A stretch of DNA of 64,000 nucleotides, taken from assembly GCA_964016885.1 (NCBI GenBank), contig CAXHJY010000988.1:102147-166146 (forward strand), in the 5' to 3' direction. Each line of letters opens with the position of its first letter. The first letter of the stretch is position 1. Origin of the DNA: Eledone cirrhosa (Eukaryota). Positions 3,306-48,252 of the stretch are shown piece after piece. Made by a program: the position numbers and the translations under genes. The notes below the pieces were generated by a model. That model saw only the letters and a list, made by a program, of their open reading frames with translations. It had not been told where the DNA came from and ran no database searches.

Positions 3306-3347
3306 CTATCATTTGATAATGCATAAAAATGCTGAATCCGGTAATAG
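3306..3347 (+). ncRNA. Degenerate type I hammerhead ribozyme relic in the PLE 3' region
   Basis: TTGATAA-T-GCAT-aaaa-ATGC-T-GAAT-CCGG-TA-ATAG. Stem II is intact and stem III is near-palindromic, but the core carries about 3 mutations relative to CTGATGA/GAAA. Confidence 0.4.
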
Positions 3348-3623
3348 ACAATTATTAAATATATAAATAGATAAATACATGCCATTGTTAAATAATAAAT
3401 AAATCAACTAATACCTTAACACTTCACACAAAGTAAAACATTTCGTTTTAATCATTTTCTAACCCAGAAAAAAGAGAGAGAAATAAAAAAGGAAAACAAT
3501 ATATTTTTCTTCCTAATAATTGTCTCTTTATCCCTGTTTCCATATATATTTTTTTTGACACAAAAACAAGATGGCGTAGGACAGAACAAAGGAGAGGCAC
3601 AAAAACAAAGAAAAGAATCCCCA

Positions 3624-3666
3624 GTCACTGAAGAGGTCACAGAATGTGTGACGAAAGAACTTTGAC
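3624..3666 (+). ncRNA. Type I hammerhead ribozyme (family A)
   Basis: GTCA-CTGAAGA-G-GTCACA-gaatg-TGTGAC-GAA-AG-aa-CT-T-TGAC. Stem I GTCA/TGAC, 6-bp stem II, minimal stem III, CUU site. Confidence 0.75.
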
Positions 3667-4029
3667 AATATATGAAAAATCGTCGGGTTGTGGAACCAAC
3701 CAACCGGAAATTTATAAATTCCTAAATTTATAATAAATTGAAGTGAAAGCAACTGGTGCGTGTGTTTCTTATTGGCAACATGACCCTCCCAAAGTATAAC
3801 AATATCGGTTTCAACACACGTTTTCAGATAAAGAATCTCGCTAAACAAATTCAAAATCGACACACACACATATATATATATATTGTTATTCTTTGGTAGG
3901 GTCATGTTGCCAATAAGAAACACACGCACCAGTTGCTTTCACTCCAATTTATTATAAATTAAATTTATAAATTTAAGAATTTATAAATTTCCGGTTGGTT
4001 GGTTGGTTCCGGACGGTTGTTCATATATT

Positions 4030-4072
4030 GTCAAAGTTCTTTCGTCACACATTTTGTGACCTCTTCAGTGAC
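4030..4072 (-). ncRNA. Type I hammerhead ribozyme (family A, inverted copy)
   Basis: Reverse complement of 3624-3666 with one loop change. Confidence 0.75.
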
Positions 4073-4182
4073 TGGGGATTCTTCTCTTTGTTTTGTGCCT
4101 CTCCTTTGTTCTGTCCTACGCCATCTTGTTTTCTGTCCTATGCCTATCTTTTTTTACACACAAAAACAAGATGGCTTATGCA

Positions 4183-4273
4183 CTCTGGTGATGTCCAGCA
4201 GAAGCAAGATGGTCAGTTAAGCCTGAAATGCATAGACGGTTGTCCCCCTTTCTTCTGCTGGACATCACCAGAG
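4183..4273. repeat. 22-bp perfect inverted repeat with 47-nt spacer
   Basis: ctctggtgatgtccagcagaag ... cttctgctggacatcaccagag. Confidence 0.85.
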
Positions 4274-4349
4274 GGCGTTAGCTCCGCCCCCCTCTCCTGT
4301 GGTTGCATAGCTACGACTTCTTAAAACCGTATTTGGATATACAAAATAT

Positions 4350-4445
4350 TTATACATATATATTTGTATATATATATAATATTGTATACATCCACAATAT
4401 ATATCACTTAACACTACTTAAACACACACACACACACACATATAC

Positions 4446-4498
<53 letters not shown>

Positions 4499-4808
4499 AT
4501 ATTATATACACACATATATGTATGTGAGTAGGTCAGAATATTTTAAATCCACAATACAGATTTGTACACAAACAGGTGTAGATACATATGCATGACACAT
4601 TTTCTCATATTTGTCTCTCTCATCCTTTTTATACATCCTTTATTACCACCTTTCTCTCTCTTAAACACAAATATGTCTCTCTCATCCCCCTCTCTCCCTC
4701 CTCTCTTTCTTTTCTCCCTCCTTCTCTCCTTCTCTCTCCTTTAAACACAAACATATCTCTCTCATACTCTTTCTCCATCCTTTATCCTCCTCTCTCTCTC
4801 TCTCCCTT

Positions 4809-4840
<32 letters not shown>

Positions 4841-4850
4841 AACACAAACA
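4350..4850. repeat. (TA)/(CA) and (CT)-rich low-complexity region
   Basis: Directly visible. Confidence 0.85.
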
Positions 4851-5450
4851 TCTATCTATGCTCATAGTAACTGGCAAAGATTTATCATTTTTAAAAATCT
4901 ACGACAGACTAATATTTGATCTGTTAAGTTACTAATTCAATGGAATCTGTAAGCCACTTTCCTGAAACAAGATGCAAAAATATATATTAATAGTGTAAAG
5001 TGCTCTGCAACCTATATTTCAAGTACAATGGAAAAAAACTAAAAGAAAGAAGGGTTCCAGTTCTTTGCAAAAGAGATCAATAAGCGATTGAGAAATCTAC
5101 AATTGTTATAGCTATCCTATATGTGCATCTATGATTTTTATTACTCCTGATTTGGTGCCAACTTTAAAATATTCTAAACTACTTCCGATTCAACTGTGTT
5201 TCCTGGATTTTACAAGGCAGACCATTCAAGTGAAAAACTCCACCAACTTACCTCCCATCAGACAAACCAATATTACAGTCTATGCTGCACTTCAGACACT
5301 ATTATTGCCAGCCAAAATAACTGTAATCTTCCCTGCAAGTCGTGTCATTTAACTGTCATGCTATCTAAAGAAATTCACTGTCTTATTAAATAAAAGGTGA
5401 TGTTGTTATCCTACATATACTTTCTCAATACTAAACAGTCTTCAATAAAA

Positions 5451-8400
5451 ATCATTACTGTCATTACTATTATCATTACTATCATTACTATCATGACTAT
5501 TACCATTACTATCATTACTATCATTACTATTACCATTACTATCATTACTATCATTACTATTACCATTACTATCATTACTATCATTACTATCATTACTATC
5601 ATTACTATCATTACTATTACCATTACTATCATTACTGTCATTACTATCATTACTATCATTACTATCATTACTATCATTACTATCATTACTATCATTACTA
5701 TCATTACTATCATTACTATTACCATTACTATCATTACTATCATTACTATTACCATTACTATCATTACTATCATTACTATTACCATTACTATCATTACTAT
5801 CATTACTATCATTACTATTACCATTACTATCATTACTATCATTACTATCATTACTATCATTACTATCATTACTATCATTACTATCATTACTATCGTGACT
5901 ATTACCATTACTATCATTACTATCATTACTATTACCATTACTATCATTACTATCATTACTATTACCATTACTATCATTACTATCATTACTATCATTACTA
6001 TTACCATTACTATCATTACTATCATTACTATCATTACTATCATTACTATCATTACTATCATTACTATCATTACTATCATTACTATCATTACTATCATTAC
6101 TATTACCATTACTATCATTACTATCATTACTATTACCATTACTATCATTACTATCATTACTATTACCATTACTATTACCATTACTATCATTACTATCATT
6201 ACTATCATTACTATCATTACTATCATTACTATTATTACTATCATTATTATTATTACTATCATTACTATCATTACTATTATTACTATCATTACTTTTATTA
6301 CTATCATTACTATCATTACTATTATTACTATCATTACTATTATTACTATCATTACTATCATTACTATTATTACTATCATTACTATTATTACTATTATTAC
6401 TATTATTACTATCATTACTATCATTACTATTATTACTATCATTACTATCATTACTATTATTACTATCATTACTATCATTACTATCATTACTATCACTACT
6501 ATCATTACTATCATTACTATCATTACTATTATTACTATCATTACTATCATTACTATCATTACTATTATTACTATCATTACTATCATTACTATTATTACTA
6601 TCATTACTATTATTACTATCATTACTATCATTACTATTATTACTATCATTACTATCATTACTATTATTACTATCATTACTATTATTACTATCATTACTAT
6701 CATTACTATCATTACTATTATTACTATCATTACTATTATTACTATTATTACTATCATTGCTATTATTACTATCATCACTATCATTACTATCATTACTATT
6801 ATTACTATTATTACTATTATTACTATTATTACTATCATTGCTATTATTACTATCATCACTATCATTACTATTATTACTATCATTACTATCATTACTATTA
6901 TTACTATCATTACTAGTATTACTATCATTACTAGTATTACTATCATTACTATTATTACTATCATTACTATCATTACTATAATTAATATTATGAATATTAT
7001 TACTATCATTACTATCATTACTATCATTACTATCATTACTATCATTACTATTATTACTATCATTGCTATTATTACTATCATTACTATTATTACTATCATT
7101 ACTATCATTACTATCATTACTATCATTACTATTATTACTATCATTACTATCATTACTATTATTACTATCATTACTATCATTACTATTATTACTATCATTA
7201 CTATCATTACTATCACTACTATCATTACTATCATTACTATCATTACTATTATTACTATCATTACTATCATTACTATCATTACTATTATTACTATCATTAC
7301 TATCATTACTATTATTACTATCATTACTATTATTACTATCATTACTATCATTACTATTATTACTATCATTACTATCATTACTATTATTACTATCATTACT
7401 ATCATTACTATCATTACTATCATTACTATCATTACTATTATTACTATTATTACTATCATTGCTATTATTACTATCATCACTATCATTACTATTATTACTA
7501 TCATTACTATCATTACTATTATTACTATTATTACTATCATTACTATTATTACTATCATTACTATCATTACTATCATTACTATTATTACTATCATTGCTAT
7601 TATTACTATTATTACTATCATTGCTATTATTACTATCATCACTATCATTACTATTATTACTATCATTACTATCATTACTATCATTACTATTATTACTATC
7701 ATTACTATTATTACTATCATTACTATTATTACTATCATTACTATCATTACTATTATTACTATAATTACTATTATTACTATCATTACTATCATTACTATTA
7801 TTACTATCATTACTATCATTACTATTATTACTATTATTACTATCATTACTATCATTACCATTATTACTATCATTACTATCATTACTATCATTACTATCAT
7901 TACTATCATTACTATCATTACTATTATTACTATCATTACTATTATTACTATCATTACTATCATTACTATTATTACTATCATTACTATCATTACTATTATT
8001 ACTATCATTACTATCATTACTATCATTACTATCATTACTATCATTACTATTATTACTATTATTACTATCATTGCTATTATTACTATCATCACTATCATTA
8101 CTATTATTACTATCATTACTATCATTACTATTATTACTATTATTACTATCATTACTATTATTACTATCATTACTATCATTACTATCATTACTATTATTAC
8201 TATCATTGCTATTATTACTATTATTACTATCATTGCTATTATTACTATCATCACTATCATTACTATTATTACTATCATTACTATCATTACTATCATTACT
8301 ATTATTACTATCATTACTATTATTACTATCATTACTATTATTACTATCATTACTATCATTACTATTATTACTATAATTACTATTATTACTATCATTACTA

Positions 8401-11400
8401 TCATTACTATTATTACTATCATTACTATCATTACTATTATTACTATTATTACTATCATTACTATCATTACTATTATTACTATCATTACTATTATTACTAT
8501 CATTACTATCATTACTATTATTACTATTATTACTATCATTGCTATTATTACTATCATCACTATCATTACTATTATTACTATCATTACTATTATTACTATC
8601 ATTACTATCATTAATATTATTACTATTATTACTATCATCACTATTATTACTATCATTACTATCATTACTATCATTACTATTATTACTATCATTGCTATTA
8701 TTACTATTATTACTATCATTGCTATTATTACTATCATCACTATCATTACTATTATTACTATCATTACTATCATTACTATCATTACTATTATTACTATCAT
8801 TACTATTATTACTATCATTACTATCATTACTATTATTACTATCATTACTATCATTACTATCATTACTATCATTACTATTATTACTATCATTACTATTATT
8901 ACTATCATTACTATCATTACTATCATTACTATCATTACTATTATTGCTATTATTACTATCATTACTATTATTACTATCATTACTATTATTACTATCATTA
9001 CTATTATTACTATTATTACTATCATTACTATTATTACTATCATTACTATTATTACTATTATTACTATCATTACTATCATTACTATCATTACTATTATTAC
9101 TATCATTACTATCATTACTATTATTACTATCATTACTATCATTACTATTATTACTATCATTACTATCATTACTATCATTACTATCACTACTATCATTACT
9201 ATCATTACTATCATTACTATTATTACTATCATTACTATCATTACTATCATTACTATTATTACTATCATTACTATCATTACTATTATTACTATCATTACTA
9301 TCATTACTATTATTACTATCATTACTATCATTACTATTGTTACTATCATTACTATCATTACTATCATTACTATCATTACTATCATTACTATCATTACTAT
9401 TATTACTATTATTACTATCATTGCTATTATTACTATCATCACTATCATTACTATTATTACTATCATTACTATCATTACTATTATTACTATTATTACTATT
9501 ATTACTATCATTGCTATTATTACTATCATCACTATCATTACTATTATTACTATCATTACTATTATTACTATCATTACTAGTATTACTATCATTACTAGTA
9601 TTACTATCATTACTATCATTACTATAATTAATATTATTACTATCATTACTAACATTACTATCATTACTATCATTACTATCATTACTATCATTACTATTAT
9701 TACTATCATTACTATTATTACTATCATTACTATTATTACTATCATTACTATTATTACTATTATTACTATCATTACTATCATTACTATCATTACTATTATT
9801 ACTATCATTACTATCATTACTATTATTACTATCATTACTATCATTACTATTATTACTATCATTACTATCATTACTATCATTACTATCACTACTATCATTA
9901 CTATCATTACTATCATTACTATTATTACTATCATTACTATCATTACTATCATTACTATTATTACTATCATTACTATCATTACTATCATTACTATTATTAC
10001 TATCATTGCTATTATTAATATTATTACTATCATTGCTATTATTACTATCATCACTATCATTACTATTATTACTATCATTACTATCATTACTATCATTACT
10101 ATTATTACTATCATTACTATTATTACTATCATTACTATTATTACTATCATTACTATCATTACTATTATTACTATAATTACTATTATTACTATCATTACTA
10201 TCATTACTATTATTACTATCATTACTATCATTACTATTATTACTATCATTACTATCATTACGATTATTACTATCATTACTATAATTACTATCATTACTAT
10301 CATTACTATCATTACTATCATTACTATCATTACTATTATTACTATCATTACTATCATTACTATCATTACTATTATTACTATCATTACTATCATTACTATT
10401 ATTACTATCATTACTATTATTACTATCATTACTATCACTACTATTATTACTATCATTACTATTATTACTATTATTACTATCATTACTAGTATTACTATCA
10501 TTACTATTATTACTATCATTACTATCATTACTATAATTACTATTATTACTATCATTACTATTATTACTATCATTACTATTATTACTATCATTACTATCAT
10601 TACTATCATTACTATCATTACTATCATTACTATCATTACTATCATTACTATCATTACTATCATTGCTATTATTACTATCATTACTATCATTACTATTATT
10701 ACTATCATTACTATTATTACTATCATTACTGTCATTACTATTATTACTATCATTACTATTATTACTATTATTACTATCATTGCTATTATTACTATCATCA
10801 CTATCATTGCTATTATTACTATCATCACTATCATTACTATTATTACTATCATTACTATTATTACTATCATCACTATCATTACTATCATTACTATCATTAC
10901 TATTATTACTATCATTGCTATTATTACTATTATTAGTATCATTGCTATTATTACTATCATCACTATCATTACTATTATTACTATCATTACTATCATTACT
11001 ATCATTACTATTATTACTATCATTACTATTATTACTATCATTACTATCATTACTATTATTACTATCATTACTATTATTACTATCATTACTATCATTACTA
11101 TTATTACTATCATTACTATTATTACTATCATTACTATCATTACTATTATTACTATCATTACTATCATTACTATTATTACTATTATTACTATCATTACTAT
11201 CATTACTATCACTACTATCACTACTATCATTACTATCATTACTATTATTACTATCATTACTATCATTACTATTATTACTATTATTACTATCATTACTATC
11301 ATTACTATTATTACTATCATTACTATTATTACTATCATTACTATCATTACTATTATTACTATCATTACTATCATTACTATTATTACCATCATTACTATTA

Positions 11401-17115: not shown

Positions 17116-17124
17116 TATTAACTT

Positions 17125-17603: not shown

Positions 17604-17650
<47 letters not shown>

Positions 17651-21512: not shown

Positions 21513-21638
21513 GGCTGACAGTTGTTTCGGAAACCATATCAGTATTCTGCACATACAGATGATAATTATCGATTATAAAATCAATAATAGTAAGTGATAA
21601 CAAAAAGAAAAATTTGATATGGTAACCTCATTGGAGCC
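21513..21638 (-). ncRNA. Degenerate type I hammerhead ribozyme with long stem II (family B)
   Basis: Minus strand: GGCT-CCAATGA-GGttACCATATCA...TGATATGGTttCC-GAA-ACA-ac-TGT-C-AGCC. All three stems pair. The core is mutated (CCAATGA). Confidence 0.55.
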
Positions 21639-21759
21639 GAAAAGAAAAAATAAACATAAAAATTCAAAAATACATGTCACTGAAAGTAGGGACTACAATA
21701 AATGTAAAACTTGAAGAATACCTGTCCACATATTAGAGATGTAAGTAAGATAATAATGC

Positions 21760-22479
21760 ATTAAAAAAATTTTTTTAAATTAACTTACTAAAATTTTCAC
21801 TCCAACTAATTAGTTTCTGCAATGGGATAAAGACAGTTACGTAATAAACTGTTGAGAATTCATTGCATCATCGGTGAAAATTTTAGTAAGTAAGTTAATT
21901 TTTAAAAATTTTTTTAAAATTTTCTTATTTTACGTCTTTTATATTATTGTTCTGCATCCTCCTGCATTGAACCACCTAGGTACTATGACATAACCTGTGT
22001 ATTTGCTGGCATTATCGTACATCTGTACGCATATGTTAGTAGATATACTAAATTCACTATATTTATCTCCAAATCACTTATTTGTTGAGCAAACCTGCCA
22101 AAACCACTACTAATTTTTTGGTGTGTTAGTAGGCTTCTGTCATCTTACCATCCCACTCCTACCGACTAGCCTCAGTGTCACGTGATTGATTCTTTAGAAT
22201 CTGCCATTTGACCAGTGACAGCGAGATTTTCAGTACATGGAATCCAGTCCCCGCTAGCTGTTCCATTTACCAAATTATTATTATTTTTATATGAGTCCCC
22301 AGTGTCTGCGCATTGCCTGGAGACTTAGCTGAGAATAGACCTTCCCGATGACGCAATGAATTCTCAACAGTTTATTACGTAACTGTCTTTATCCCATTGC
22401 AGAAACTAATTAGTTGGAGTGAAAATTTTAGTAAGTAAGTTAATTTTTTAAAATTTTTTTTTAATTTTCTTATTTTACG

Positions 22480-22490
<11 letters not shown>
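21760..22490. mobile_element. Non-coding HHR-bearing element: inverted copy plus partial tandem (~545-bp period), ending in (TA)n
   Basis: 21760-21874 is the reverse complement of ~22345-22462. 21874-21945 is a direct repeat of 22419-22490. Confidence 0.7.
22341..22419 (+). ncRNA. Type I hammerhead ribozyme variant with CCGAUGA core (family C); inverted copy at 21800-21874
   Basis: CTTC-CCGATGA-(c/T)GCAATG...CATTGCA-GAA-ACTAATTAGT(palindrome)-T-GGAG. Confidence 0.55.
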
Positions 22491-27290: not shown

Positions 27291-27309
27291 ACATATTCCT
27301 GACAGCGAG

Positions 27310-28324: not shown

Positions 28325-28436
28325 TGCTTACAAATGTTTCTACAGTGGTTATACAGCCTAGTTATGCTATGTGCAAATTTATAACTATTTGCAAAACTCA
28401 ATTATCAAATGCTGTGACCACTGTATCATCAGAGCA
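28325..28436 (-). ncRNA. Type I hammerhead ribozyme with extended stem II (family D)
   Basis: Minus strand: TGCT-CTGATGA-TACAGTGGT-cACAGC...GCTGT-ata-ACCACTGTA-GAA-ACA-tt-TGT-A-AGCA. Canonical core, three paired stems, GUA site. Confidence 0.82.
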
Positions 28437-29338: not shown

Positions 29339-29461
29339 AGTTTTAATATAGATGAGAATCTACAGGACTAGAACTGTTTCATTCATTAGAAATGAGATTC
29401 CTGATGATTTCTAATGAATGAAACAGTTCTAGTCCTGTAGATTCTCATCTATATTAAAACT
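29339..29461. repeat. 55-bp perfect inverted repeat overlapping an HHR-like core
   Basis: Arms 29339-29393 and 29407-29461. CTGATGA-T-TTC-taat-GAA-T-GAAAC starts at 29401. Flanked by (TA)n. Confidence 0.8.
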
Positions 29462-31393: not shown

Positions 31394-31435
31394 ACCACTG
31401 ATGATGTCACAGATGTGAAATGAAAGAACTTTGTT
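31394..31435 (+). ncRNA. Hammerhead ribozyme, family A' (partly decayed)
   Basis: acca-CTGATGA-T-gtCACAgaTGTGaaat-GAAAGAACTT-tgtt, with the same GAAAGAACTTTG end as family A. Confidence 0.5.
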
Positions 31436-32004
31436 AGACTATATATCAGAAACCACTATAACAACAATAACAACTCCAACAAAGAGAGGTGGCATGGTAA
31501 AAATTTAGGAAATTGCTTAAAAGACTATATTTGAATTAGATTTTTTAATGTTAAAACAGAGGTTCTCAAAGTAGGCACTACTGATTCCCCCCCCCCCCCC
31601 CCCCCCACACACACACAGAGTGTTGAGAAGGTCAAGAGGGGGCACTGGAGCCTGAGGTGTGGGGGGGGGGGGGGGAGATAGAGATGATATAATAGTATAT
31701 TAAATATGAAATGATACATATATAAATATGGTAAAATAAAAAATACATAATATTTATTTATACATAGTATATAGTATATTATTTCGTTTCTGAATTTGTT
31801 TAACAAGATTCTTTATCTGAAAACGTGTGTTGAAACCGATATTGTTATACTTTGGGAGGGTCATGTTGCCAATAAGAGACACATGCACCAGTTGCTTTCA
31901 CTTCAATTTATTGTAATAAATTTATAAATTTAGGAATTTATAAATTTCCGGTTGGTTGGTTGGTTGGTTGGTTGGTTCCACAACCAGATGATTGTTTATA
32001 TATT

Positions 32005-32047
32005 GTCAAAGTTCTTTCGTCACACAATCTGTGACCTCTTCAGTGAC
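32005..32047 (-). ncRNA. Type I hammerhead ribozyme (family A)
   Basis: Minus strand: GTCA-CTGAAGA-G-GTCACA-gattg-TGTGAC-GAAAGAACTT-TGAC. Confidence 0.75.
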
Positions 32048-32250
32048 AGGGGATTCTTTTCTTAGTTTTTGTGCCTCTCCTTTGTTCTGTCCTACGCCAT
32101 CTTGTTTTTGTGTGTGTTGTGTGCTTAGTTTGCGCATGTGTTACATCCGGGTGTCTGTGTGTGTTTATATTTGTTTATTTATTGGTTTATTTACATGTTA
32201 CTGGTTGGTTGTTTGTTCTATGTGTGTGTGTGTGTGTTTTCATTTTGTCC

Positions 32251-33860
32251 TTAATTGTAAGTTGTGATGTTGCTGTTCCATTCATGTTTTCTATTTAATT
32301 TTGGTTGGAGTTCATTTATGTTTATTGCCTCTGTGATTTGTCTAAACATTGCGTCTTTTGTGTGTGTAGATTCTATTTTTATTTCTATGTTCTCTAATTT
32401 GCCCTTATGTTCTATTTTAGCATGTTGGTAGTACAGATGATTATTTATTATCTTGAAGGTCTCGCCAGTGTTCATTTATCCGTTCCCCTATACTACGGGC
32501 TGTCTCACCTATGTACACTATATTCTTACCTCTACATTGTCCTTCAGTCAGTACATCTTATGCTATATACTACATTTCTAGTTTTACAGTTAATATGGGG
32601 GCTTAATTTACAGATTATACATTTCTTATCTATACAGGGAGGTCTTTGAAAAGGGTATGTATTGCTAATAAGTGTTTTTATGGAGGTACCTGGTCTTTCT
32701 AGTATCTTAATATTGAGTTTATGTTTATCTAGGGCCCTTCTAAATTTGTAAGCTAATTCACCTCTAGGGGTTGTATCGATGAACATTACACTCTGGTATT
32801 TATTGCTATCATACCATGAGTTTATTCTATTAACCTTATTCCTTGTTCTTTCTATTCTATTCCAAAATTTGCTCCTATACAAGGGGCAGGTCCCATTTGT
32901 GTCATTATTTATCATTTTTTCCCATTTGGTTCTGGCTCCTCTATATACTCTGATTTTATCTCTCTGATTGTAACCAGAGAACTGCATATGGTGGATGAAG
33001 TGTTGTATGTGTCTCTCTAGTTCTTCGGAGTTGCACATGTGGGACACGTTTCTCATCACCCATACTAAATCCGCAATTAGTATGTTGATTTTGGTATGGT
33101 CCGAAACAGCTGAGTTTCAGTGGATCAGATATTTGGAAGTCATGGGTTTGGCATAATGGGAATGGAGGATTTGTTTTTTGTTATTAATGGTTTCTAACCA
33201 GACCTCTGTGTCTAGTACAGGTAATCGATGGTTGGGGTGTTTGCTTGGGTAGTCTATAGTAACTCTAATACTCTGGTGGATGGAGTTAGCTATTTGCTGG
33301 ATGCTTTCCATTGTGTTTTTCTCTAGTTCCTGACTGTTCTCTAGTGGGGGTGTTTTAACTAAGATGTTTATATCATCTACGTAGCGGGAGTACATTATCA
33401 GGGTTAAGGGGTCTTCTAATTGTTCTTTAAGTTTAAGTTTAAGTCTACTGTCCCACCATACTATGAATAGGTTAGCTATGTCGCCTGCAATGCTAACACC
33501 AATGGCTGCTCCCTCCTCTTGGGCATATGTTTTTCCATTAAATTTGAACATATGTTCCTTAAGGGTTAATTTTATGCTGGCCCCCACCGCATGTGCAATC
33601 ATTTTCTTTAGTTCATCATGGTTTTCGGGGGTCTGTATGGCTCTGGTCCACCTGTTCCATCTATCTATGTGGGTTTTCTTGGCCATTGAGGTAATGGTAG
33701 GTGTCTACATCATCATATGGGCATTGAGAGCCTTTTCCCTATCCTCATGCTCTTGTGGTATTACTTCGCTTGTGTTAGTGATGTGGGGTTGCATTGCCTG
33801 GATGTAGTTTGACAGACTGTCAACCGACATTCTGCCAGACTTGTCTGTTGGACAAATATA
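32251..33860 (-). pseudogene. PLE RT-GIY-YIG pseudogene (left, inverted arm)
   Basis: Minus-strand ORFs 33705-33860 (ICPTDKSGR), 33117-33686 (YSRYVDD), 32544-33059 and 32251-32475. Confidence 0.9.
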
Positions 33861-35787
33861 ATGCAGCCCAACAAAAGGACTGCCAACAACTTCCAGGCCT
33901 GGAACAATGACGTGCCAGCGTTGTATGGGCTTCGAAAAGACCATAAAACGAGCAGTGACCCTGTCACAGGGCCACCAACACGGCCGGTCTATGGAGCTAA
34001 CATTGCTAGTAACTACAGACTGTCCTACTTCCTCTCCCTGATCATACGCCCCATCATTGAAATGTCCCCAGATGTATGTGACAGCACGGAGGTCCTCCTC
34101 AGCAGAATCGGCGAGAGTAACCGATCTAGGGACCTAACAAACTGCATAATAGGTAGTATGGATGTTGTGTCCCTGTATCCATCTATTGACGTGGATTTTG
34201 CTGTGGAGAAATGCATAGAAATGTTGAATTCCATGGGATTGATACCAGTGAGCTGGGACACCTACTTAAACTTACCTATAGTAATAATTATCTAGACACA
34301 TATGACCTTAGCAACCTGTGCCCTACAAGACCAGCAAGAGGCAGACCACCTACCAATGGCCAAGAAAACCCACACAGATAGATAGAACGGGTGGACCAGA
34401 GCCATACGGACCCCCGAAAACCATGATGAACTAAAGAAAATGATTGCACATGCGGTAGGGGCCAGCATAAAACTAACCCTTAAGGAACATATGTTCAAAT
34501 TTAATGGAAAAACATATGCCCAAGAGGAGGGAGCAGCCATTGGTGTTAGCATTGCAGGCAACATAGCTAACTTATTCATGGTATGGTGGGACAGTAGACT
34601 TAAACTTAAACTTAAAGAACAATTAGAAGACCCCTTAACCCTGATAATGTACTTCCACTACGTTGATGATATAAACATTGTAGTTAAAACACCCCCACTA
34701 GAGAACAGTCAGGAATTAGAGAAAAACACAATGGAAAGCATCCAGCAAATAGCTAACTCCATCCACCAGAGTATTAGAGTTACTATAGACTACCCAAGCA
34801 AACACCCCAACCATCGATTACCTGTACTAGACACAGAGCTCTGGTTAGATACCATTAATAACAAAAAACAAATCCTCCATTCCCATTATGCCAAACCCAT
34901 GACTTCCAAATATCTGATCCACCGAAACTCAGCTGTTTCGGACCATACCAAAATCAACATACTAATTGCGGATTTAGTATGGGTGATGAGAAACGTGTCC
35001 CACATGTGCAACCCCGAAGAACTAGAGAGACACATACAACACTTCATCCACCATATGCAGTTCTCTGGTTACAATCAGAGAGATAAAATCAGAGTATATA
35101 GAGGAGCCAGAACCAAATGGGAAAAAATGATAAATAATGACACAAATGGGACCTGCCCCTTGTATAGGAGCAAATTTTGGAATAGAATAGAAAGAACAAG
35201 GAATAAGGTTAATAGAATAAACTCATGGTATGATAGCAATAAATACCAGAGTGTAATGTTCATCGATACAACCCCTAGAGGTGAATTAGCTTACAAATTT
35301 AGAAGGGCCCTAGATAAACATAAACTCAATATTAAGATAGTAGAAAGACCAGGTACCTCCATAAAAACACTTATTAGCAATACATACCCTTTTCAAAGAC
35401 CTCCCTGTATAGATAAGAAATGTATAATCTGTAAATTAAGCCCCCATATTAACTGTAAAACTAGAAATGTAGTATATAGCATAAGATGTACTGAAGGACA
35501 ATGTAGAGATAAGAATATAGTGTACATAGGTGAGACAGCCCGTAGTATAGGGGAACGGATAAATGAACACTGGCGAGACCTTCAAGATAATAAATAATCA
35601 TCTGTACTACCAACATGCTAAAATAGAACATAAGGGCAAATTAGAGAACATAGAAATAAAAATAGAATCTACACACACAAAAGACGCAATGTTTAGACAA
35701 ATCACAGAGGCAATAAACATAAATGAACTCCAACCAAAATTAAATAGAAAATATGAATGGAACAGCAACATCACAACTTACAATTAA
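33861..35787 (+). pseudogene. PLE RT-GIY-YIG pseudogene (right arm)
   Basis: ORFs 33861-34295, 34440-35597 and 35563-35787, with stops and frameshifts. Confidence 0.9.
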
Positions 35788-35990
35788 GGACAAAATGAAA
35801 ACACACACACACACACATAGAACAAACAACCAACCAGTAACATGTAAATAAACCAATAAATAAACAAATATAAACACACACAGACACTCGGATGTAACAC
35901 ATGCGCAAACTAAGCACACAACACACACAAAAACAAGATGGCGTAGGACAGAACAAAGGAGAGGCACAAAAACAAAGAAAAGAATCCCCA

Positions 35991-36033
35991 GTCACTGAAG
36001 AGGTCACAGGATGTGTGATGAAAGAACTTTGAC
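35991..36033 (+). ncRNA. Type I hammerhead ribozyme (family A)
   Basis: GTCA-CTGAAGA-G-GTCACA-ggatg-TGTGAT-GAAAGAACTT-TGAC, with a G-U pair at the base of stem II. Confidence 0.7.
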
Positions 36034-37316
36034 AATATATAAACAATCATCTGGTTGTGGAACCAACCAACCAAACGGAAATTTATAAATTCCTAAATTT
36101 ATAAATTTATTACAATAAATTGAAGTGAAAGCAATTGGTGCGTGTGTTTCTTATTGGCAACATGACCCTCCCAAAGTATAACAATTATATTATTTATTAT
36201 ATATAAATTAACAATTTTATTTATTTTATATTATTTACAATTTGTGTTTAAGCAAGCCTTGCTGGAAATAGGGAGGGGGTGCTGAGGGTATTACATGGCC
36301 ATGAGTGGAAGGGGGGAGCGAAAAGTTTGAGAACCTCTGTGTTAAAATCACTAAAATATTTGATACTCATATAACATGGCTTTCTCTATAATTTTGTTTA
36401 CTGTTGCATGTATATTACTAACACACTCTTAAAAAGTACTAACTCACCTCAGACAAGGTGAATGATTCATTTTTTAAAGATTTTCATATAAATCACTATG
36501 GCTAAATTTATTGTATTCAACAATAATTTTAAAAAATATAGTGAGAAGGTGTGAGTGTGTAGGATATTTATCTGAGCAAATACATTACTCATAGGTGAAT
36601 AATTGTGATTATCTGACCAGTAAGTTAATAGGATTGATGTTATAAAGAATATGAATTTTAAGATTAAATAATGTATGTATGAATCTGTAACTCTTGATGG
36701 AGTCATGGAAAAATGATAGTGGCACTTTTAACCTGGTGGAGCCCATCCCTTCTCCAATTCTGAACACAGCAGATTTCTTCCAAAGAAGGAGAGAAAAAAC
36801 GATAAAGTGGAAATGAGAAATATATATAGAAAAATAATCAACCCTGGTACTAGACTGGTACTTTATTTATCAACCCCAAAAGTGAATAGCAAAGCACAGG
36901 ATTAAGAAGCTAGCAGATGTATCTAGCAAAGAAATGCGTTAAAAATATGAGCTATTATCCTTGTCCCTTTTGGTGCAGAAGCACCTGAAACCACCCTTGG
37001 TTCTTTGATACATAGATGTATATTTTAAAATTTTATATTCATCTAAAAACCTTCCATCATAATTATATGTAAGAATCTCTGTTAAATTATGTTACAAACA
37101 ACTTAAATAGAAATGTAGATATGTTACTAAATCCCTCCAAATTCTTTAATATTTTCAAAATGATTTGAAAACTTTAGGCAGTATCATTCTTTAGAAATAT
37201 GGTAGTATCATAATCAGTTATATGGTCAAGGGAGATGTATTGTAGATGAGCAATTACAGAGACATTTAATCATTACACTAAGTTTAAGGGTTGAGGTCCG
37301 TCTGAAATAGTACATA

Positions 37317-40280: not shown

Positions 40281-40283
40281 CCC

Positions 40284-42445: not shown

Positions 42446-42950
42446 TTTCTCTTTCTCTTAATTTCGACTATATTTTTTTGACTGGCCACCTTCCTGGTGG
42501 CAAGGTTGTAAAAGAAAAGAAATTGTCATCCCTTGAATCGCAAGAATGTTTTGCAAATGTTCAAGGTGCCAGCTATCGCAGCCATTTGCAGACTATGAAT
42601 TAGGGAGCTGCGCCCTTTGTCCACAAATCCAAGTTCAGTCATACTTTGGTCCAAGCGGGTTGGTATATAACCCGTAGCTCCAATAATGATGGGTATGAAG
42701 CTGAAGGTGTATCTTGGATACTGGATCTGCAAACTCCTCATCAATGGTCCGTAGATGTCCTCCTTCCCTTGTATATTTGTTACAACGTTTACATCAAGTG
42801 GGCAGCTGATCTCCACAACAGAATACGTTTTCAATGCGTGGTCCCAAACAACAATATCAGGCCGGTTGTGCTTTAATTTGGTGGCAGTTTTTATTTTCAG
42901 ATACCACCAGTATTCTTTAGTGCCATCTATCTCAACATATTCCTCCGCCT
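42446..42950 (-). mobile_element. 5'-truncated RLE non-LTR retrotransposon (R4/Dong-like), family 1
   Basis: KHNRPDI...VVEISCPLDVN...KEDIY..L......F.FIPIIIGATG...LNICKTF. Flanked by (TATG)n. Confidence 0.75.
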
Positions 42951-43009
42951 ATGTATGAATGTATGTATGTGTGTGTGTATGAATGTATGTATGTGTGTAT
43001 GTAGGTATA

Positions 43010-44062
43010 TATGTTCTTCTGGTTTTATAATTTCACAAAGTTTTACCAATAGAGAAAGAGTCGGTTTCTAACATAGACACAAGACTCTCTCATTGGAATT
43101 TATACAACATCAACTAGGTAGATATGTATGTATATCTGCATGCATGCATGTGTAGATATGGATGTTATTGTATGTGTGGATGTGTATGTTTTGAGTTGTA
43201 TGTGTGCATGTGTATATGCTTTGTATCTGTACATGTGTATATGCAGTTATTAGATGCAAAATGTTTGGAATGTTTTACATATTTTTACTGTTCCATTAAT
43301 GGATTGTACTTGTAATTTCCTAACTAGTTGTGTTCTTTCTGTTCCTGTGAAGCCTAGCTTCTCAAGATTTGTATTGAGGCAGTTACTAACATATCCCAGT
43401 GCCCCAATAATCACAGCCATAAATCTGAAGGTGTAATCAGGGAGAAGTATCTGCTGATTTCTCATCAGTTCTGCATAAATATTCTCCTTTTCACTAATCT
43501 TTGATATTATATTGGCATCTGCTGGGCAGCTAATTTCCACTACTGTGCATGTTTTCTTCTCCCTGTCCCATATCATAATATCTGGTCTGTTATGCCTGCA
43601 TTTTATTGGGGTTTTTACTGGAATATTCCACCAGTACTCTTTCATATTATGTACATGGATGTCTTCCACATTGTTGTAGCTTTTAATGTGTTTATTATCG
43701 GGGCTATCTTTTTTACGAACTGCATGGTACAGTGTTTTGGCCACTACATCATGCCTCATAGGTAGATAGTACCACGATAACATCTTTGAACAGCTGCTGA
43801 TGACATGAGTGATATCTTTGATGTTAGTTCTGCAGAGTCTGCACTTGTTATCACGTCTAGGTGTTTTGCCTGCATCCCTATCTCTTTTGTGAATCAGATA
43901 TTTTGTGCTAATCTCCTGTTCTTGGATTGCAAAAGCGTATCCTTCAAAGTGGGAGCCAATATAGCGGTTGTTGGTCCAAGATAGACTACTTTCCTTATCT
44001 ATATTACTCTCACTCTGGAGCTTCCTGGCAACATATCCATGCATGATTTTTTGCTGATAGGA
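43010..44062 (-). mobile_element. 5'-truncated RLE non-LTR retrotransposon (R4/Dong-like), family 2
   Basis: MHG...EGYAFAIQEQEISTK...CRLC..KDITHVISSC..Y..RHDVVA...NRPDI...VEISCP...KENIY..L...VIIGALG: CCHC knuckle plus PD-(D/E)xK RLE. Confidence 0.85.
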
Positions 44063-44199
44063 TGTATGTATGTATGTATGTATGTATGTATGTATGTATG
44101 TATGTATGTATGTATGTATGTATGTATATGTGTATGTATGTGTATGTGTATATGTATGTATGTGTATATGTATGCATGTATGTGTGTATGTAGGTATGT

Positions 44200-44743
44200 A
44201 TGTTCTTCTGGTTTTATAATTTCACAAAGTTTTACCAATAGAGAAAGAGTCGGTTTCTAACATAGACACAAGACTCTCTCATTGGAATTTACACAACATC
44301 AACTAGGTAGATATGTATGTATATCTGCATACATGCATGTGTAGATATGGATGTTATTGTATGTGTGGATGTGGATGTTTTGAGTTGTATGTGTGCATGT
44401 GTATATGCTTTGTATCTGTACATGTGTATATGCAGTTATTAGATGCAACATTTTTGGAATGTTTTGTCTATTTTTACTGTTCCATTAATGGATTGTACTT
44501 GTAATTTCCTAACTAATTGTGTTCTTTCTGTTCCTGTAAAGCCTAGCTTCTCAGGATTTGTATTGAGGTAGTTTCTAACATACCCCAGTGCCCCAATAAT
44601 CACAGGCATAAATCTGAAGGTGTAATCAGGGTGGAGTATCTGCAGATTTCTCATCAGTTCTGCATTAACATTCTCCTTTTCACTAATCTTTGATATTATA
44701 TTGGCATCTGTTGGGCAGCTAATTTCCACTACTGTGCATGCTT
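44200..44743 (-). mobile_element. Second, shorter 5'-truncated copy of RLE family 2
   Basis: Near-identical to 43010-43550, with the same 3' end and (TATG)n flanks. Confidence 0.85.
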
Positions 44744-44990
44744 TATGTATGTATGTGTGTATGTATGTATGTGTGTATGTATATATGTATGTATGTGTGT
44801 GCATATGTGATGTGTGTGTATGTTTTCAGAAAAGGTAGGAAGAGAAAAATAAATGGTTGAATTTTCCCCGTCAGAATATGAAGATATTGCTACCAGCTAA
44901 AGTTGCTACTTAGATCAGCCAGTGAACATATATATGAATTTAATCCCTTATCTTTGTATCAATTCCCACATATATATAAATATATATATA

Positions 44991-45255: not shown

Positions 45256-45289
<34 letters not shown>

Positions 45290-45492
45290 TATGTACACGT
45301 ACATACATATATGTATACCAACGTACAGTAGTATGTATATATATATATACATACATGCACACATATATATATGCACGCATGGATTCACCGAACATTTATT
45401 ATAATGCTCGGTGTGTTTGTAAACAAACATCCCGTATTAAGCTGTAGTGTCTAGCAACCACCGTTGCTCGTTTGTTCAACACTGACAAAGGA

Positions 45493-45535
45493 ACGCTGTA
45501 CTAGTTTCAAGCTTGTTAGCTATCGTCAGCAACGT
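45493..45535 (-). ncRNA. Minimal type I hammerhead ribozyme (family E, inverted copy)
   Basis: Minus strand: ACGTTG-CTGACGA...GAAACTAGTA-CAGCGT, with a 6-bp stem I. Confidence 0.8.
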
Positions 45536-45783
45536 ATACCTTACATGTATGTATATATATACATACTACTGTACGTCGGTATACATATATGTATGTACGT
45601 GTACATACTTATATTTAAGTAACAGCCGTACTAAGAGTGGGAAATGAAATATCGTTTCATTTTTTCCGTTTATCGTTTTCGGTGCACCCGGCCGATTAAC
45701 CCACTCGATATGCAAATTGGGCTACTCAGCCGTTAATATGCATAAGGTAAGTATATACGTTCAACAATCTGGCAGGAAGGTAT

Positions 45784-45826
45784 ACGTTGCTGACGATAGC
45801 TAACAAGCTTGAAACTAGTACAGCAT
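45784..45826 (+). ncRNA. Minimal type I hammerhead ribozyme (family E)
   Basis: GTTG-CTGACGA-T-AGC-taacaa-GCT-T-GAA-ACTAGT(palindrome)-A-CAGC. Confidence 0.78.
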
Positions 45827-46089
45827 TCCTTTGTCAGTGTTGAACAAACGAGCAACGGTGGTTGCTAGACACTACGGCTTAATACGGGATGTTTGTTTAC
45901 AAACACACCGAGCATTATAATAAATGTTCGGTGAATCCATGCGTGCATATATATATGTGTGCATGTATGTATATATATATATACATACTACTGTACGTCG
46001 GTATACATATATGTATGTACGTGTACATACTTATATTTAAGTAACAGCCGTATTAAGAGTGGGAAATGAAATATCGTTTCATTTTTTCC

Positions 46090-46142
<53 letters not shown>

Positions 46143-46145
<3 letters not shown>

Positions 46146-47093
46146 GTAGAGCACTCAGTCCATGGGACGAGTTAGGTGGAAGTGGTTACACAACAGTTAG
46201 TTCACCATACCGAGAACAATTGTTTCACCTTAGCAGATCCTCAGCTCGTAATGGACATGGTTATACGGAACAGGAAGGACAACCGTACGAACGCGCATGC
46301 GCAGAAACGATCACTTTACACAGGCAATACTAAATTGCGTGCGAGAGGCAATACTAAATTGCGTGCGAAAGTCCGAAAGTTTCTAGTTGATAAGAAAATT
46401 AGGATGTTGTTGTAATTCAATCCGGCGCTTTGTAGTTATGTAAGAGGTGTTTCCAGACGCGTGGACAACGTGTGAAGAATTCATTTCTCGTGTTTAGGCA
46501 ATCATTATTGCATAATCTCTTTAGAATATTTATTCGTTCATCAATACATAGTCCACACGACGGATTGCCCCTTGCGTATGGCTTGGGTACCCGTATGGTT
46601 TTGGTACAAAACTCGCGAGCCACGTATGGTCTCTCAAGGACTCAAGTATAGACTACTCCATCCAATGGAAAGCCATCACTAAGTCCAAGCCATACGCAAG
46701 GGGCAATCCGTCGTGTGGACTATGTATTGATGAACGAATAAATATTCTAAAGAGATTACGCAATAGTGATTGCCTAAACACGAGATATGAATTCTTCACA
46801 CGTTGTCCACGCGTCTGGAAACACCTCTTACATAACTACAAAGCTCTGGATTGAATTACAACAACATCCTAATTTTCTTATCAACTAGAAACTTTCGGAC
46901 TTTCGCAGTTATCTCCCTTACACCTCTCACATGCAATTTAGTATTGCCTGTGTGAATTGATCGTTTCTGCGCATGCGCGTTCGTACGGTTATACTTCCTG
47001 TTCCGTATAACCATGTCCATTACGAGCTGAGGATCCGCTATGGTGAAACAATTGTTCTCGGTATGGTAAACTAACTGTTGTGTAACCACTTTT
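46143..47093. mobile_element. Head-to-head palindromic PLE 3'-end insertion within (TA)n
   Basis: ~400-bp inverted arms (46180-46587 vs 46685-47091). PLE C-terminal peptide KPY...CGLCIDERINIL...CLNTRNEFFTRCPR. HHR in each arm. Confidence 0.8.
47023..47060 (+). ncRNA. Minimal type I hammerhead ribozyme (family F); inverted copy at 46211-46248 (-)
   Basis: CGAG-CTGAGGA-T-CCG-cta-TGG-T-GAA-ACAATTGT(palindrome)-T-CTCG. Stem I is extended by CCAT/ATGG. Confidence 0.78.
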
Positions 47094-47103
47094 ATATATA
47101 TAT

Positions 47104-47410
47104 TTGTTTTGCAAGGTTTTTTATATGAAATCGTGTGTTGAAACAGATATTGTTATATTTGGGGAGGGTCATATTGTTGTAATAATATTGTCAGAAATAA
47201 TAACAGAACACACTCACTGTTTGGTTGGTTTTCGCTTCTGTATCTTTTATATCACCATAGTTAATTTATTTGGCAATCAATGTTTATCATTGACTGACTA
47301 ACGGTTAAAAATACAGATATAAATATATATATAGTCTAACAAAGTTCTTTCGTTGCACATCTGCAACATCATCAGTGGTACTATTATGTTTCCTCCTATT
47401 GTATTGTAAT
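47104..47410 (-). mobile_element. PLE pLTR fragment (family A') with HHR at ~47337-47379
   Basis: Minus strand: acca-CTGATGA-T-GTTGCA-gatg-TGCAAC-GAAAGAACTT-tgtt. The terminus resembles 31800-31870. Confidence 0.7.
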
Positions 47411-47559
47411 GCGAATCCAAAGTCAGGTTCGATCCACAAATAGATTGCACCTTGAGCTGTTCACTGGAGAAACAATTGTAATACGTTAATAAATTGTGTT
47501 CCGATGCATCACTGATTCTTCATCTTCCATATCATTGTACTCTCCGTAGAAGCATAGAG

Positions 47560-48013
47560 TGCTCAACTGACATACTACAATGTCACTGGACTGAGATCTT
47601 TGGCGCTATGCAGTAATACAAAAGACCCGCCTTGCCTAAGTGCAAAGTGAAACCTACAGTCAGTAGGCACCTCTTACCAAAATACACCCCATCCCACTAC
47701 ACCCCCCCCCTCGATGTAAAGTTATGTTGGTACCACAACATCCAGTCCGAAATAAATGAGGTCGTGTAGGTGTCACGACAAAAAAACACACAGTCCACGC
47801 TGTAATGTGGCCGTGTAGGTAACACGGTAAAAACCTCCCAGTCCACACTGTAAATGTCGTTGGTTTTAGGAAGGGCATCCGGCCGTAGAAAACCTGCCAG
47901 ACAGTCCTATATGAGCAAGACAACCAATCTTGCCTCAAGTGGGAAAATTCCTGTCCAAACCCATGCTACCGTGGAAGATGGACGTTAAACGATGATGATG
48001 ATGATGATGATGA
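47560..48013 (+). mobile_element. 5'-truncated copy of the RTE element
   Basis: Matches 26583-27040, including the (GAT)n tail. Confidence 0.85.
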
Positions 48014-48163
48014 TATAATAATATAATAATATATGTAGAAATAAACAGTAAATTCCGTGTCTAAAATTACGAGGGTAGAGAATGCCACAAATGTTTTATA
48101 TATTTAACCTGAAACATACAGTAGGATATAAAATTATATACAGACCGTATCAATAACCATTTC

Positions 48164-48252
48164 ATCTCTCGGACAGATTAGAGATTTAATCTGTTTCGCC
48201 CTGAAAATTGTGTTTGTAACAGATAAGCCGTAGGCTTTCCTCAGCGAGAGAT
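48164..48252 (-). ncRNA. Full-stem type I hammerhead ribozyme (family G)
   Basis: Minus strand: ATCTCTCG-CTGAGGA-aa-GCCT...GGGC-GAA-ACAGATTA-aatctc-TAATCTGT-C-CGAGAGAT. 8-bp stems I and III, GUC site. Confidence 0.85.

What the first reader, a model, noticed from the sequence alone, without database searches (positions are those of the whole stretch)
3306..48252. Dense ensemble of hammerhead ribozymes from about 8 unrelated families in gene-free DNA
Seen: CUGANGA...GAAA...UH cores with correctly pairing stems I-III at 3624(+), 4030(-), 28325(-), 32005(-), 35991(+), 45493(-), 45784(+), 46211(-), 47023(+), 47337(-) and 48164(-). Variant or decayed forms occur at 3306, 21513, 21800/22341, 29401, 31394 and 38277. 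The stem sequences are unrelated between families while the topology (type I) is shared. Established: minimal type I HHRs occur in PLE pseudo-LTRs and metazoan retrozymes, and palindromic stem III suggests dimeric cleavage. Inference: this genome hosts a diverse, largely unannotated population of ribozyme-processed retroelements, autonomous and non-autonomous, which the ORF track cannot show.
Basis: partly seen in the sequence, partly recalled or inferred. Interest (0 to 1): 0.85.

Follow-up and report, generated by a model that had tools for sequence, protein, structure and literature searches.

The report
Hammerhead ribozymes of Penelope-like retrotransposons
The hammerhead ribozyme motifs are real but of a known kind: they are the end pieces of about ten families of Penelope-like jumping genes and their likely non-coding hitch-hikers, and this genome carries roughly one such motif per 10 kb, so the window is ordinary for it; whether any of them actually cuts RNA is untested.

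Summary
The motifs are real: 10 strict type I hammerheads in the window against 0.04 in shuffles, with compensatory changes among homologous copies. All 11 listed sites and 5 of the 6 variant entries hold; 38277 is the coding end of a LINE. The DNA is not ORF-free. Families A, B, D, F and J sit just behind Penelope-like RT/GIY-YIG frames (K weakly); C, E, G and H are ORF-less, retrozyme-like repeats. A and B are relatives. The window is not unusually dense: 80 evenly spaced 10-kb stretches gave 77 motifs (96 per Mb; P about 0.1-0.26 for the window's count), about 290,000 genome-wide by extrapolation, above the published counts I found (different descriptors). Family H also forms a 78-bp one-ribozyme-per-unit satellite over at least 370 kb elsewhere. 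Cleavage and expression are untested. Window copies are truncated or inverted and have no nearby same-strand partner for dimer cleavage. Known kind (PMC4209133, PMC7229834); this scan has noted the same arrangement in other genomes. What is new is scale, not kind.

The parts
451..2739 (+). Frameshifted Penelope-like ORF (RT + CX4CxxC linker + GIY-YIG), cognate to family J
   Evidence: same ORF upstream in 13 of 20 J loci, window included
3306..3347 (+). Family J hammerhead, U3-A8 core variant (core 3313-3319), weak stem I, palindromic stem III; this copy has lost A15.1
   Evidence: 19 of 19 other copies have GAAA; 1482 first-look candidates
3624..3666 (+). Family A minimal hammerhead (predicted cut after 3662) in a truncated pLTR, inverted partner at 4030
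4030..4072 (-). Family A minimal hammerhead (predicted cut after 4034)
21513..21638 (-). Family K hammerhead, long stem II, most copies CCGAUGA, GUC site; decayed core in this copy (21634-21628)
   Evidence: PLE ORF upstream in 1 of 20 loci
21745..22489 (.). Family G insertion: 1.1 units of a 541-bp ORF-less repeat (21874-22489 +) with an inverted 5' piece (21745-21872)
21800..21874 (-). Family G hammerhead in the inverted piece, 5' strand of stem I cut off
22341..22419 (+). Family G hammerhead, U4C core in this copy, palindromic 5-bp stem III (predicted cut after 22415)
28325..28436 (-). Family F hammerhead, long stem II (predicted cut after 28329), 3' end of a Hydra-type PLE
   Evidence: PLE ORF upstream in 12 of 30 loci
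29339..29461 (.). Family H fragment as a fold-back; hammerhead 29395-29445 (+), 4-bp stem III with 8-nt loop, one stem I mismatch in this copy
31394..31436 (+). Family B hammerhead, decayed stem II
31841..36185 (.). Family A PLE insertion: 5'-truncated RT/GIY-YIG ORF (33813-35760 +) and an inverted copy (31841-33688, 97% identical)
32005..32048 (-). Family A minimal hammerhead in the inverted copy (predicted cut after 32009)
35991..36033 (+). Family A minimal hammerhead about 230 nt behind the ORF end (predicted cut after 36029)
45283..46095 (.). Family C insertion: 1.3 units of a 422-bp ORF-less repeat (45545-46095 +) with an inverted piece (45283-45542)
45493..45535 (-). Family C hammerhead, 6-bp stem I, palindromic stem III (predicted cut after 45499)
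45784..45826 (+). Family C hammerhead (predicted cut after 45820)
46180..47091 (.). Family D PLE end as an inverted pair, with the GIY-YIG C-terminus (46552-46854 +)
   Evidence: PLE ORF upstream in 20 of 30 loci
46211..46248 (-). Family D minimal hammerhead (predicted cut after 46215)
47023..47060 (+). Family D minimal hammerhead, palindromic stem III (predicted cut after 47056)
47337..47379 (-). Family B hammerhead (sister of A), 2 contiguous stem I pairs (predicted cut after 47342)
   Evidence: A-like ORF upstream in 10 of 30 loci
48021..48350 (.). Family E insertion: truncated copy of a roughly 470-bp ORF-less unit (48021-48307 -) plus an inverted piece (48306-48350)
48162..48254 (-). Family E hammerhead: 10-bp stem I, 8-bp stem III, GUC site (predicted cut after 48172); the best candidate for monomeric cleavage

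Best explanation
The window holds insertions of about ten repeat families that each carry a type I hammerhead motif near their 3' end; five (A, B, D, F, J) lie directly behind Penelope-like RT/GIY-YIG frames, K likely does too, and four (C, E, G, H) are ORF-less units likely mobilised by those same proteins. Shown: the motifs, their multicopy nature, the cognate ORFs, the truncated and inverted shape of the insertions, and tandem units for C, E, G and H. Inferred from the known biology of PLEs: RNA from intact tandem source copies is reverse-transcribed at endonuclease nicks in AT-rich or (TA)n DNA, leaving 3' ends with the ribozyme; in the source copies the ribozymes would cut multimeric transcripts, minimal ones as dimers or with protein help, E and H possibly alone. 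The window's own copies are most likely inert by-products. Local DNA-level amplification then likely turned G and H units into long satellites.
For: 10 hits vs 0.04 in shuffles. Covariation among BLAST-collected homologues: A/B 85.6% of cells paired and 22 double changes vs 8.7 shuffled; C 8 vs 3.6; G 6 vs 2.0; slid controls pair 13-51%. Palindromic stem III, not asked for by the descriptor, in 51 of 77 genome-sample hits vs 8 of 73 shuffled hits. Same-sense PLE ORF within 1.5 kb upstream: A 17 of 30 cognate, B 10 of 30, D 20 of 30, F 12 of 30, J 13 of 20, against C 1 of 30, E 2 of 30, G 0 of 30, H 0 of 20, K 1 of 20. L373 holds repeat-ORF-repeat for A: two same-strand hammerheads 3.8 kb apart around a 1,047-codon open frame. 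D and F have the CxCX5C linker that defines the Hydra clade. Same-strand repeats: C 9 of 30 loci (410-432 bp), E 3 of 30 (467-656 bp), G 28 of 30 (541 bp); longest ATG frame 27-65 codons, GC 34-38%. Inverted 5' pieces as described for PLEs (PMC8557442).
Against: No cleavage or expression data. Rfam hammerhead models do not reach threshold. The count of pairs with a double change was not above shuffles for A/B (199 of 500) or G (220 of 500), and cells count related sequences, not events. Mobilisation of C, E, G, H in trans is inferred from shape only; some may be truncated ends of PLEs whose ORF lies beyond the 1.5 kb examined, or was too divergent for my queries. Only 10 of 77 genome-sample hits had a detectable sense ORF upstream, against 6 downstream. 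Several motifs have U at position 17, a U-U or C-A pair at the base of stem II, or a 2-bp stem I. Published work finds hammerhead cleavage dispensable for PLE insertion in vitro (PMC11167929).
Confidence: 0.88

Rival explanations
1. The motifs are inherited structure with little or no catalytic role: they ride on PLE ends as passengers or as protein-binding folds, and transposition does not need the cut.
For: Family K spread with a U4C core and J with a weak stem I. In the H satellite the core is not clearly better kept than the rest (2.6% vs 4.1% mismatch, stem III 6.0%, 355 units). PMC11167929: catalytic mutants insert normally in vitro and no RNA-seq ends were seen at the site. 8 of 9 frog dimers did not cleave.
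Against: Compensatory changes and conserved cores across many divergent families, and the U3-A8 double change in several families, point to selection on the catalytic fold in source lineages. This rival concerns function, not identity, and can hold together with the best explanation.
Confidence: 0.3
2. C, E, G and H are not separate non-autonomous elements but 5'-truncated ends of autonomous PLEs whose tandem arrays arose only by DNA-level duplication.
For: H copies share an upstream stretch of about 500 bp, and diverged H-like copies lie next to Hydra-like ORF pieces (2 of 13 checked). The preprint itself proposes birth of retrozymes from PLE ends by local amplification.
Against: C, E and G units close on themselves at a fixed length at many unlinked loci, and the window's C and G insertions each hold more than one unit plus an inverted piece, as expected from a multimeric or circular RNA template. 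No cognate ORF in 30 loci each for G and, apart from incidental hits, C and E.
Confidence: 0.2
3. The window is a functional cluster or hot spot of ribozymes, distinct from the rest of the genome.
For: 10 motifs in the roughly 39 kb that is not satellite is about 2.6 times the genome mean (P about 0.09 by resampling).
Against: Genome sample 96 per Mb; P 0.20-0.26 for 10 or more in 60-70 kb; single 10-kb stretches held up to 9. Each motif is an ordinary copy of a family with 114-1,679 first-look candidates genome-wide; orientations are mixed.
Confidence: 0.04
4. The motifs are chance matches in AT-rich repetitive DNA.
For: Short cores; Rfam below threshold; one listed site (38277) and two other CUGANGA..GAAA strings (1197, 48430) are chance.
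Against: Shuffles, palindrome excess, covariation, position behind PLE ORFs.
Confidence: 0.01

Closest known systems
Minimal hammerheads (min-HHR) in the pLTRs of metazoan Penelope-like elements (Cervera & de la Pena 2014, PMC4209133)
   Same: Type I topology, 4-5-bp helix I, unpaired base between A9 and stem II (A, B), short palindromic helix III (D, J, K), U3-A8 core variant (J), several sequence families per genome, mostly single motifs or opposite-strand pairs 100-700 bp apart from truncated elements.
   Different: F, G and K have stem II loops of 35-95 nt; E has an 8-bp helix III like the fungal and protist PLE type; estimated number (about 290,000) far exceeds the 2,000-9,000 per genome reported there, with a different descriptor.
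Hydra-clade and Neptune/Nematis-type C-terminal EN+ PLEs (Craig et al. 2021, PMC8557442)
   Same: D and F: CxCX5C linker, CxxC and CxH around the conserved E and N, hammerhead, (TA)n neighbours. A and J: CX4CxxC linker before GIY-YIG. Partial tandems and inverted 5' copies.
   Different: No tree was built, so clade labels rest on motifs; the DKT and RWK motifs of Hydra were not seen in the truncated D frame.
Metazoan non-LTR retrozymes (Cervera & de la Pena 2020, PMC7229834; Li, Clavereau & Pollet 2026, bioRxiv 10.64898/2026.07.22.740005)
   Same: C, E, G, H: ORF-less, GC under 45%, one type I hammerhead per unit, monomers to long arrays, co-occurring with PLEs; U-U at the base of stem II as in axolotl HHR_Amex2.
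   Different: Circular RNA not shown. G (541 bp) and H (78 bp) lie outside the 150-450 bp of the 2020 paper but inside the 51-972 bp of the preprint. The H array (about 4,700 units if continuous) exceeds the preprint's maximum of 300 units.
Rfam Hammerhead_1 (RF00163)
   Same: Family E aligns over the whole model with the expected core.
   Different: 18.4 bits against a cut-off of 34; the other families give no match.

Membership tests
PLE pLTR hammerhead (min-HHR) | Type I core CUGANGA / GAAA / UH with three helices, above chance | tested here: met
   10 vs 0.04 in shuffles; 38277 fails
PLE pLTR hammerhead (min-HHR) | Lies at the end of an RT + GIY-YIG element, same sense | tested here: met
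   A 17/30, B 10/30, D 20/30, F 12/30, J 13/20; K only 1/20; not met for C, E, G, H
PLE pLTR hammerhead (min-HHR) | Present in both direct repeats flanking the ORF | tested here: inconclusive
   Met for A in L373; not seen in the 15 longer stretches taken for B, D, F, J, K, which were truncated or inverted
PLE pLTR hammerhead (min-HHR) | Short palindromic helix III allowing dimers | tested here: inconclusive
   Met for C, D, G, J, K; interrupted in A/B and F; long hairpins in E and H; 51 of 77 in the genome sample
PLE pLTR hammerhead (min-HHR) | Compensatory changes in helices across copies | tested here: met
   A/B, C, G, with the caveat that rows are related; D, E, F, J, K, H not counted
PLE pLTR hammerhead (min-HHR) | Self-cleavage in vitro or in vivo | not testable with these tools
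   No assay; no RNA run listed
Hydra-clade PLE (families D, F) | CxCX5C linker and CxxC/CxH motifs in a C-terminal GIY-YIG | tested here: met
   against section 11 of PMC8557442
Hydra-clade PLE (families D, F) | DKT and RWK motifs; placement in the RT tree | tested here: inconclusive
   No DKG/DKT in the 585-aa D frame, which lacks its start; no tree built
Non-LTR retrozyme (families C, E, G, H) | Short ORF-less low-GC units in head-to-tail repeats, one type I hammerhead each | tested here: met
   C 410-432 bp, E 467-656 bp, G 541 bp, H 78 bp
Non-LTR retrozyme (families C, E, G, H) | Expressed as unit-length linear and circular RNA | not testable with these tools
   Only contigs of runs of unknown kind were offered
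Non-LTR retrozyme (families C, E, G, H) | Target-site duplications; homology to a PLE pLTR | not tested
   Ends abut (TA)n; no systematic comparison made
Rfam Hammerhead_1 / HH9 / HH10 | Score at or above the gathering threshold | tested here: not met
   best 18.4 of 34 bits

The most novel reading that the evidence does not exclude
This genome is the most ribozyme-dense animal genome on record (about one hammerhead per 10 kb, some 290,000 in dozens of families), and family H has shrunk to a 78-bp unit that is little more than one hammerhead, amplified into a same-strand array of at least 370 kb (about 4,700 units) that is transcribed and chops itself into 78-nt RNAs or circles: a minimal retrozyme turned satellite.
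Probability: 0.2. Interest if true: 0.6.

Novelty: new member of a known kind. Interest (0 to 1): 0.3.

Why it matters
As a kind it is known. Its value is as material. The role of PLE hammerheads is still open, and this genome offers young families (93-99% identical copies) covering minimal, dimer-type, monomer-type, U3-A8 and U4C ribozymes, an A copy with an open 1,047-codon frame between two repeats, and each step from PLE end to short tandem to long satellite. The motifs are invisible to Rfam, so annotation would miss a feature present about once per 10 kb; any active ones inside introns could cut host pre-mRNA.

Tried and rejected
Rfam scans of the window, of 45700-45900 and of 46950-48300: no hammerhead at threshold; the other hits were (TA)n or hairpin look-alikes. 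RNA evidence: no RNA holder listed; contigs of X1 and X4, both of unknown kind, cover the stretch but cannot show ends or strand. 38277 as a hammerhead with an inserted hairpin: rejected. 3306 on the minus strand and 21513 read as a core lacking G8: rejected; the real cores are on the plus strand and 120 nt upstream. CUGANGA strings at 1197, 27818 and 48430: no helices. Search for cognate ORFs of C, E, G, H with J-, A- and D-type proteins within 1.5 kb: nothing convincing; the ORF pieces beside E in L052, L057 and L043 are not shared between loci. Selection test inside the H satellite: no clear signal. Single-sequence folding gives the hammerhead fold as minimum for one E copy but not for the window's E copy or the H unit. 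One pattern count (G cores) returned nothing because the pattern was mis-spaced; G cores were read instead. Lunse et al. 2017 (PMC5785218) is not held. Eight paper searches found no survey of hammerheads in a genome like this and no 78-bp hammerhead satellite; supplements of PMC4209133, PMC8557442 and PMC7229834 were not read and those of the preprint are closed, and they may list such families.

Full report
Question. The window is G000:C1015:102147-166146 of a 3.0-Gb genome in 1,796 contigs. My impression that its repeats look like those of an octopod is recalled and was not tested.

Is it there? I wrote a descriptor for the type I fold (core CUGANGA, stem II with an optional unpaired base or first mismatch, GAAA, stem III of 2 bp or more closed by A15.1-U16.1, H17, stem I). 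It gave 10 hits with stem I of 4 bp or more, against 0.04 +/- 0.2 in 100 dinucleotide shuffles made in 1-kb blocks; 12 against 0.29 with stem I of 2 bp; 13 against 0.74 with a relaxed core (two of those 13, at 39349 and 22548, look like chance). Rfam does not see them: nothing in the window at E<=5, nothing at 45700-45900, and 18.4 bits (cut-off 34) for the 48164 motif.

Families. Self-comparison and eleven searches of the own genome (only the best 40 candidates are scored each time) sort the sites into A (3624, 4030, 32005, 35991), B (47337, 31394), C (45493, 45784), D (46211, 47023), E (48164), F (28325), G (21800, 22341), H (29401), J (3306), K (21513) and I (38277). First-look candidates number 114 to 2,754, and the best copies are 90-100% identical except for I (about 80%). 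A and B are homologous: 82% over 51 nt at the ribozyme, a shared tail, and RTs 47-70% identical. J has the U3-A8 double change in 20 of 20 copies; the window's copy alone has lost A15.1. K's real core lies 120 nt upstream of where it first appears, with a long stem II and a GUC site; most copies read CCGAUGA and the window's is decayed. G reads CCGAUGA in the window and CUGAUGA in the array copies. I fails: no stem I, core intact in 14 of 25 homologues, and the letters fall in a reading frame that continues an upstream LINE frame.

Structure beyond the descriptor. Homologues were collected by BLAST alone, thinned to under 93% identity and aligned with MAFFT. I used 24 of 27 A/B representatives (three truncated or deleted rows dropped), 12 of 12 for C, and 7 of 7 for G with the 22341 copy in place of the truncated 21800 copy; the 35 H rows were not counted. 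Cells paired: 85.6, 81.8 and 94.0%, against 13-51% for slid partners; cells with a change on both sides 22, 8 and 6 against 8.7, 3.6 and 2.0 in shuffles. The number of pairs with such a change was not exceptional for A/B (199 of 500 shuffles) or G (220 of 500) and modest for C (18 of 500), and related rows inflate cell counts. A self-complementary stem III, which the descriptor does not ask for, occurs in 51 of 77 genome-sample hits against 8 of 73 relaxed hits in shuffles. In the window it holds for C, D, G, J and K only.

What carries them. The window has Penelope-like frames: RT and GIY-YIG at 815-2739 and 33120-35597, and a GIY-YIG end at 46552-46854. With these and one locus-derived protein as queries, a same-sense PLE frame ends within 1.5 kb upstream of the motif in 18 of 30 A loci (17 cognate; the window's 3624 copy sits behind J's frame), 10 of 30 B, 20 of 30 D (two are the window, one supplied the query), 12 of 30 F, 13 of 20 J (one is the window) and 1 of 20 K, but 1 of 30 C, 2 of 30 E, 0 of 30 G, 0 of 20 H, 0 of 20 I. 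Of 20 longer stretches, L373 shows the textbook layout for A, two same-strand hammerheads 3.8 kb apart around a 1,047-codon open frame; the others were truncated or inverted. D and F (28% identical) carry the CxCX5C linker and flanking C/H motifs given for the Hydra clade; A and J carry a CX4CxxC linker. No tree was built. C, E, G and H recur head to tail: C in 9 of 30 loci at 410-432 bp, E in 3 of 30 at 467-656 bp, G in 28 of 30 at 541 bp, with no ATG frame over 65 codons and 34-38% GC. In the window C and G are each a little more than one unit plus an inverted piece, ending in (TA)n. A, D, E and H also have inverted pieces. That is the insertion pattern described for PLEs (PMC8557442, passages). 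No motif in the window has a same-strand partner of its family closer than 28 kb, so none could dimerise within a local transcript.

Is the window dense? Eighty evenly spaced 10-kb stretches from 21 large contigs gave 77 strict hits, 96 per Mb (bootstrap 59-139), against 0-1 in each of five shuffles; 48 stretches had none and one had 9. Ten or more hits arise in 20-26% of resampled 60-70 kb sets, and in 9% of 40-kb sets, which matches the non-satellite part of the window. The window is ordinary for its genome. The hits form 29 families at 85% identity (Chao1 about 48); five of the window's families (A, C, D, G, H) recur among them. Extrapolated, the genome holds about 290,000 motifs (175,000-415,000), or about 190,000 if same-family hits in a stretch count once; unplaced contigs and several chromosomes were not sampled. 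Published counts I saw are about 2,000 plus 1,300 minimal motifs in Schistosoma, 4,000 in coelacanth and 9,000 in Xenopus (PMC4209133, parts 1-2 of 4); over 6,000 in a coral, about 5,000 in a mussel and up to 120,000 in axolotl (PMC7229834, passages); 235 Rfam hits in giant squid (PMC6962438, passages). Descriptors differ, so a record is possible but not shown.

Satellites. Family H forms a same-strand array of 78-bp units on C28: 14 of 14 probes from 30.50 to 30.87 Mb are full of it and the nine probes further out are not, at least 370 kb or about 4,700 units if continuous. About 55% of units pass the strict descriptor (69 of 127 in L390). Mismatch to the commonest unit is 2.6% in the core, 1.3-6.0% in helices and 4.1% elsewhere (355 units), which gives no clear sign of selection. 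G spans at least 190 kb. The retrozyme preprint (10.64898/2026.07.22.740005, parts 1-3 of 5) reports units of 51-972 bp and up to 300 repeats.

Mechanism. Shown: motifs, families, carriers, insertion shapes, arrays. Inferred: PLE proteins copy their own RNA and that of the ORF-less units into AT-rich DNA; ribozymes in tandem source copies would cut multimers into units, as dimers for short-helix types and perhaps alone for E and H. Against a needed cut: minimal PLE hammerheads cleave poorly; in the anole element cleavage needs the protein, is dispensable for insertion in vitro, and leaves no RNA-seq ends (PMC11167929, passages); 1 of 9 frog dimers cleaved; U4C lowers activity in vitro (PMC3088659, passage). 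A review (PMC6765202, passages) gives the same picture. No RNA data could be had here.

Verdict. Real, multicopy, structurally constrained hammerhead motifs of Penelope-like elements and retrozyme-like repeats: new members of known kinds. Earlier notes of this scan describe the same arrangement in other genomes (unchecked) and none in this one. The genome-wide abundance and the 78-bp ribozyme satellite are the parts worth a specialist's time. Interest 0.3.

Noticed in passing
G000:C28:30500001-30870800 (L390-L399, L410-L413): Same-strand satellite of 78-bp units, each one family H hammerhead plus a short linker; 14 of 14 probes inside are full of it, probes at 30.40 and 30.92 Mb are not; 69 strict motifs among 127 units in L390.
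   Followed up: partly
G000:C28:8792001-8982000 (L092-L119, L402-L405); L309: Family G array of 541-bp units over at least 190 kb; a second G array with a period near 556 bp turned up in the systematic sample.
   Followed up: partly
L373:3462-7284 (-): Family A element with two same-strand hammerhead repeats around an open frame of 1,047 codons (stop to stop) with RT and GIY-YIG motifs.
   Followed up: partly
L266, L279, L284, L307: Further tandem hammerhead families (about 310 bp and 467 bp) that share the stem II loop letters of family C but have different, correctly paired stems.
   Followed up: no
L280, L282, L299, L329, L311, L317: At least three more families with the U3-A8 core double change.
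   Followed up: no
window 38170-38510 and 27303-27617: Decayed 3' coding ends of LINEs with a restriction-like endonuclease; the CRE/NeSL-type label is recalled from the motif, not from a call. 2,754 first-look candidates, best copies about 80% identical.
   Followed up: partly
window 5451-16960, 40424-41685, 50227-64000: Satellites of 9 bp (11.5 kb), 72 bp and 61 bp (13.8 kb, runs off the window).
   Followed up: no
window 18784-19447, 23501-26448, 42526-44825: Remnants that look like a mariner transposase, an RTE-type LINE (endonuclease domain E 0.005) and an R4/NeSL-type LINE with a 604-bp direct duplication; labels recalled from motifs.
   Followed up: no
window 48193-48244 (-): In the window's E copy a private change creates a hairpin, and the predicted fold then pairs the catalytic core with a downstream stretch; another copy folds into the hammerhead as its minimum.
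   Followed up: partly
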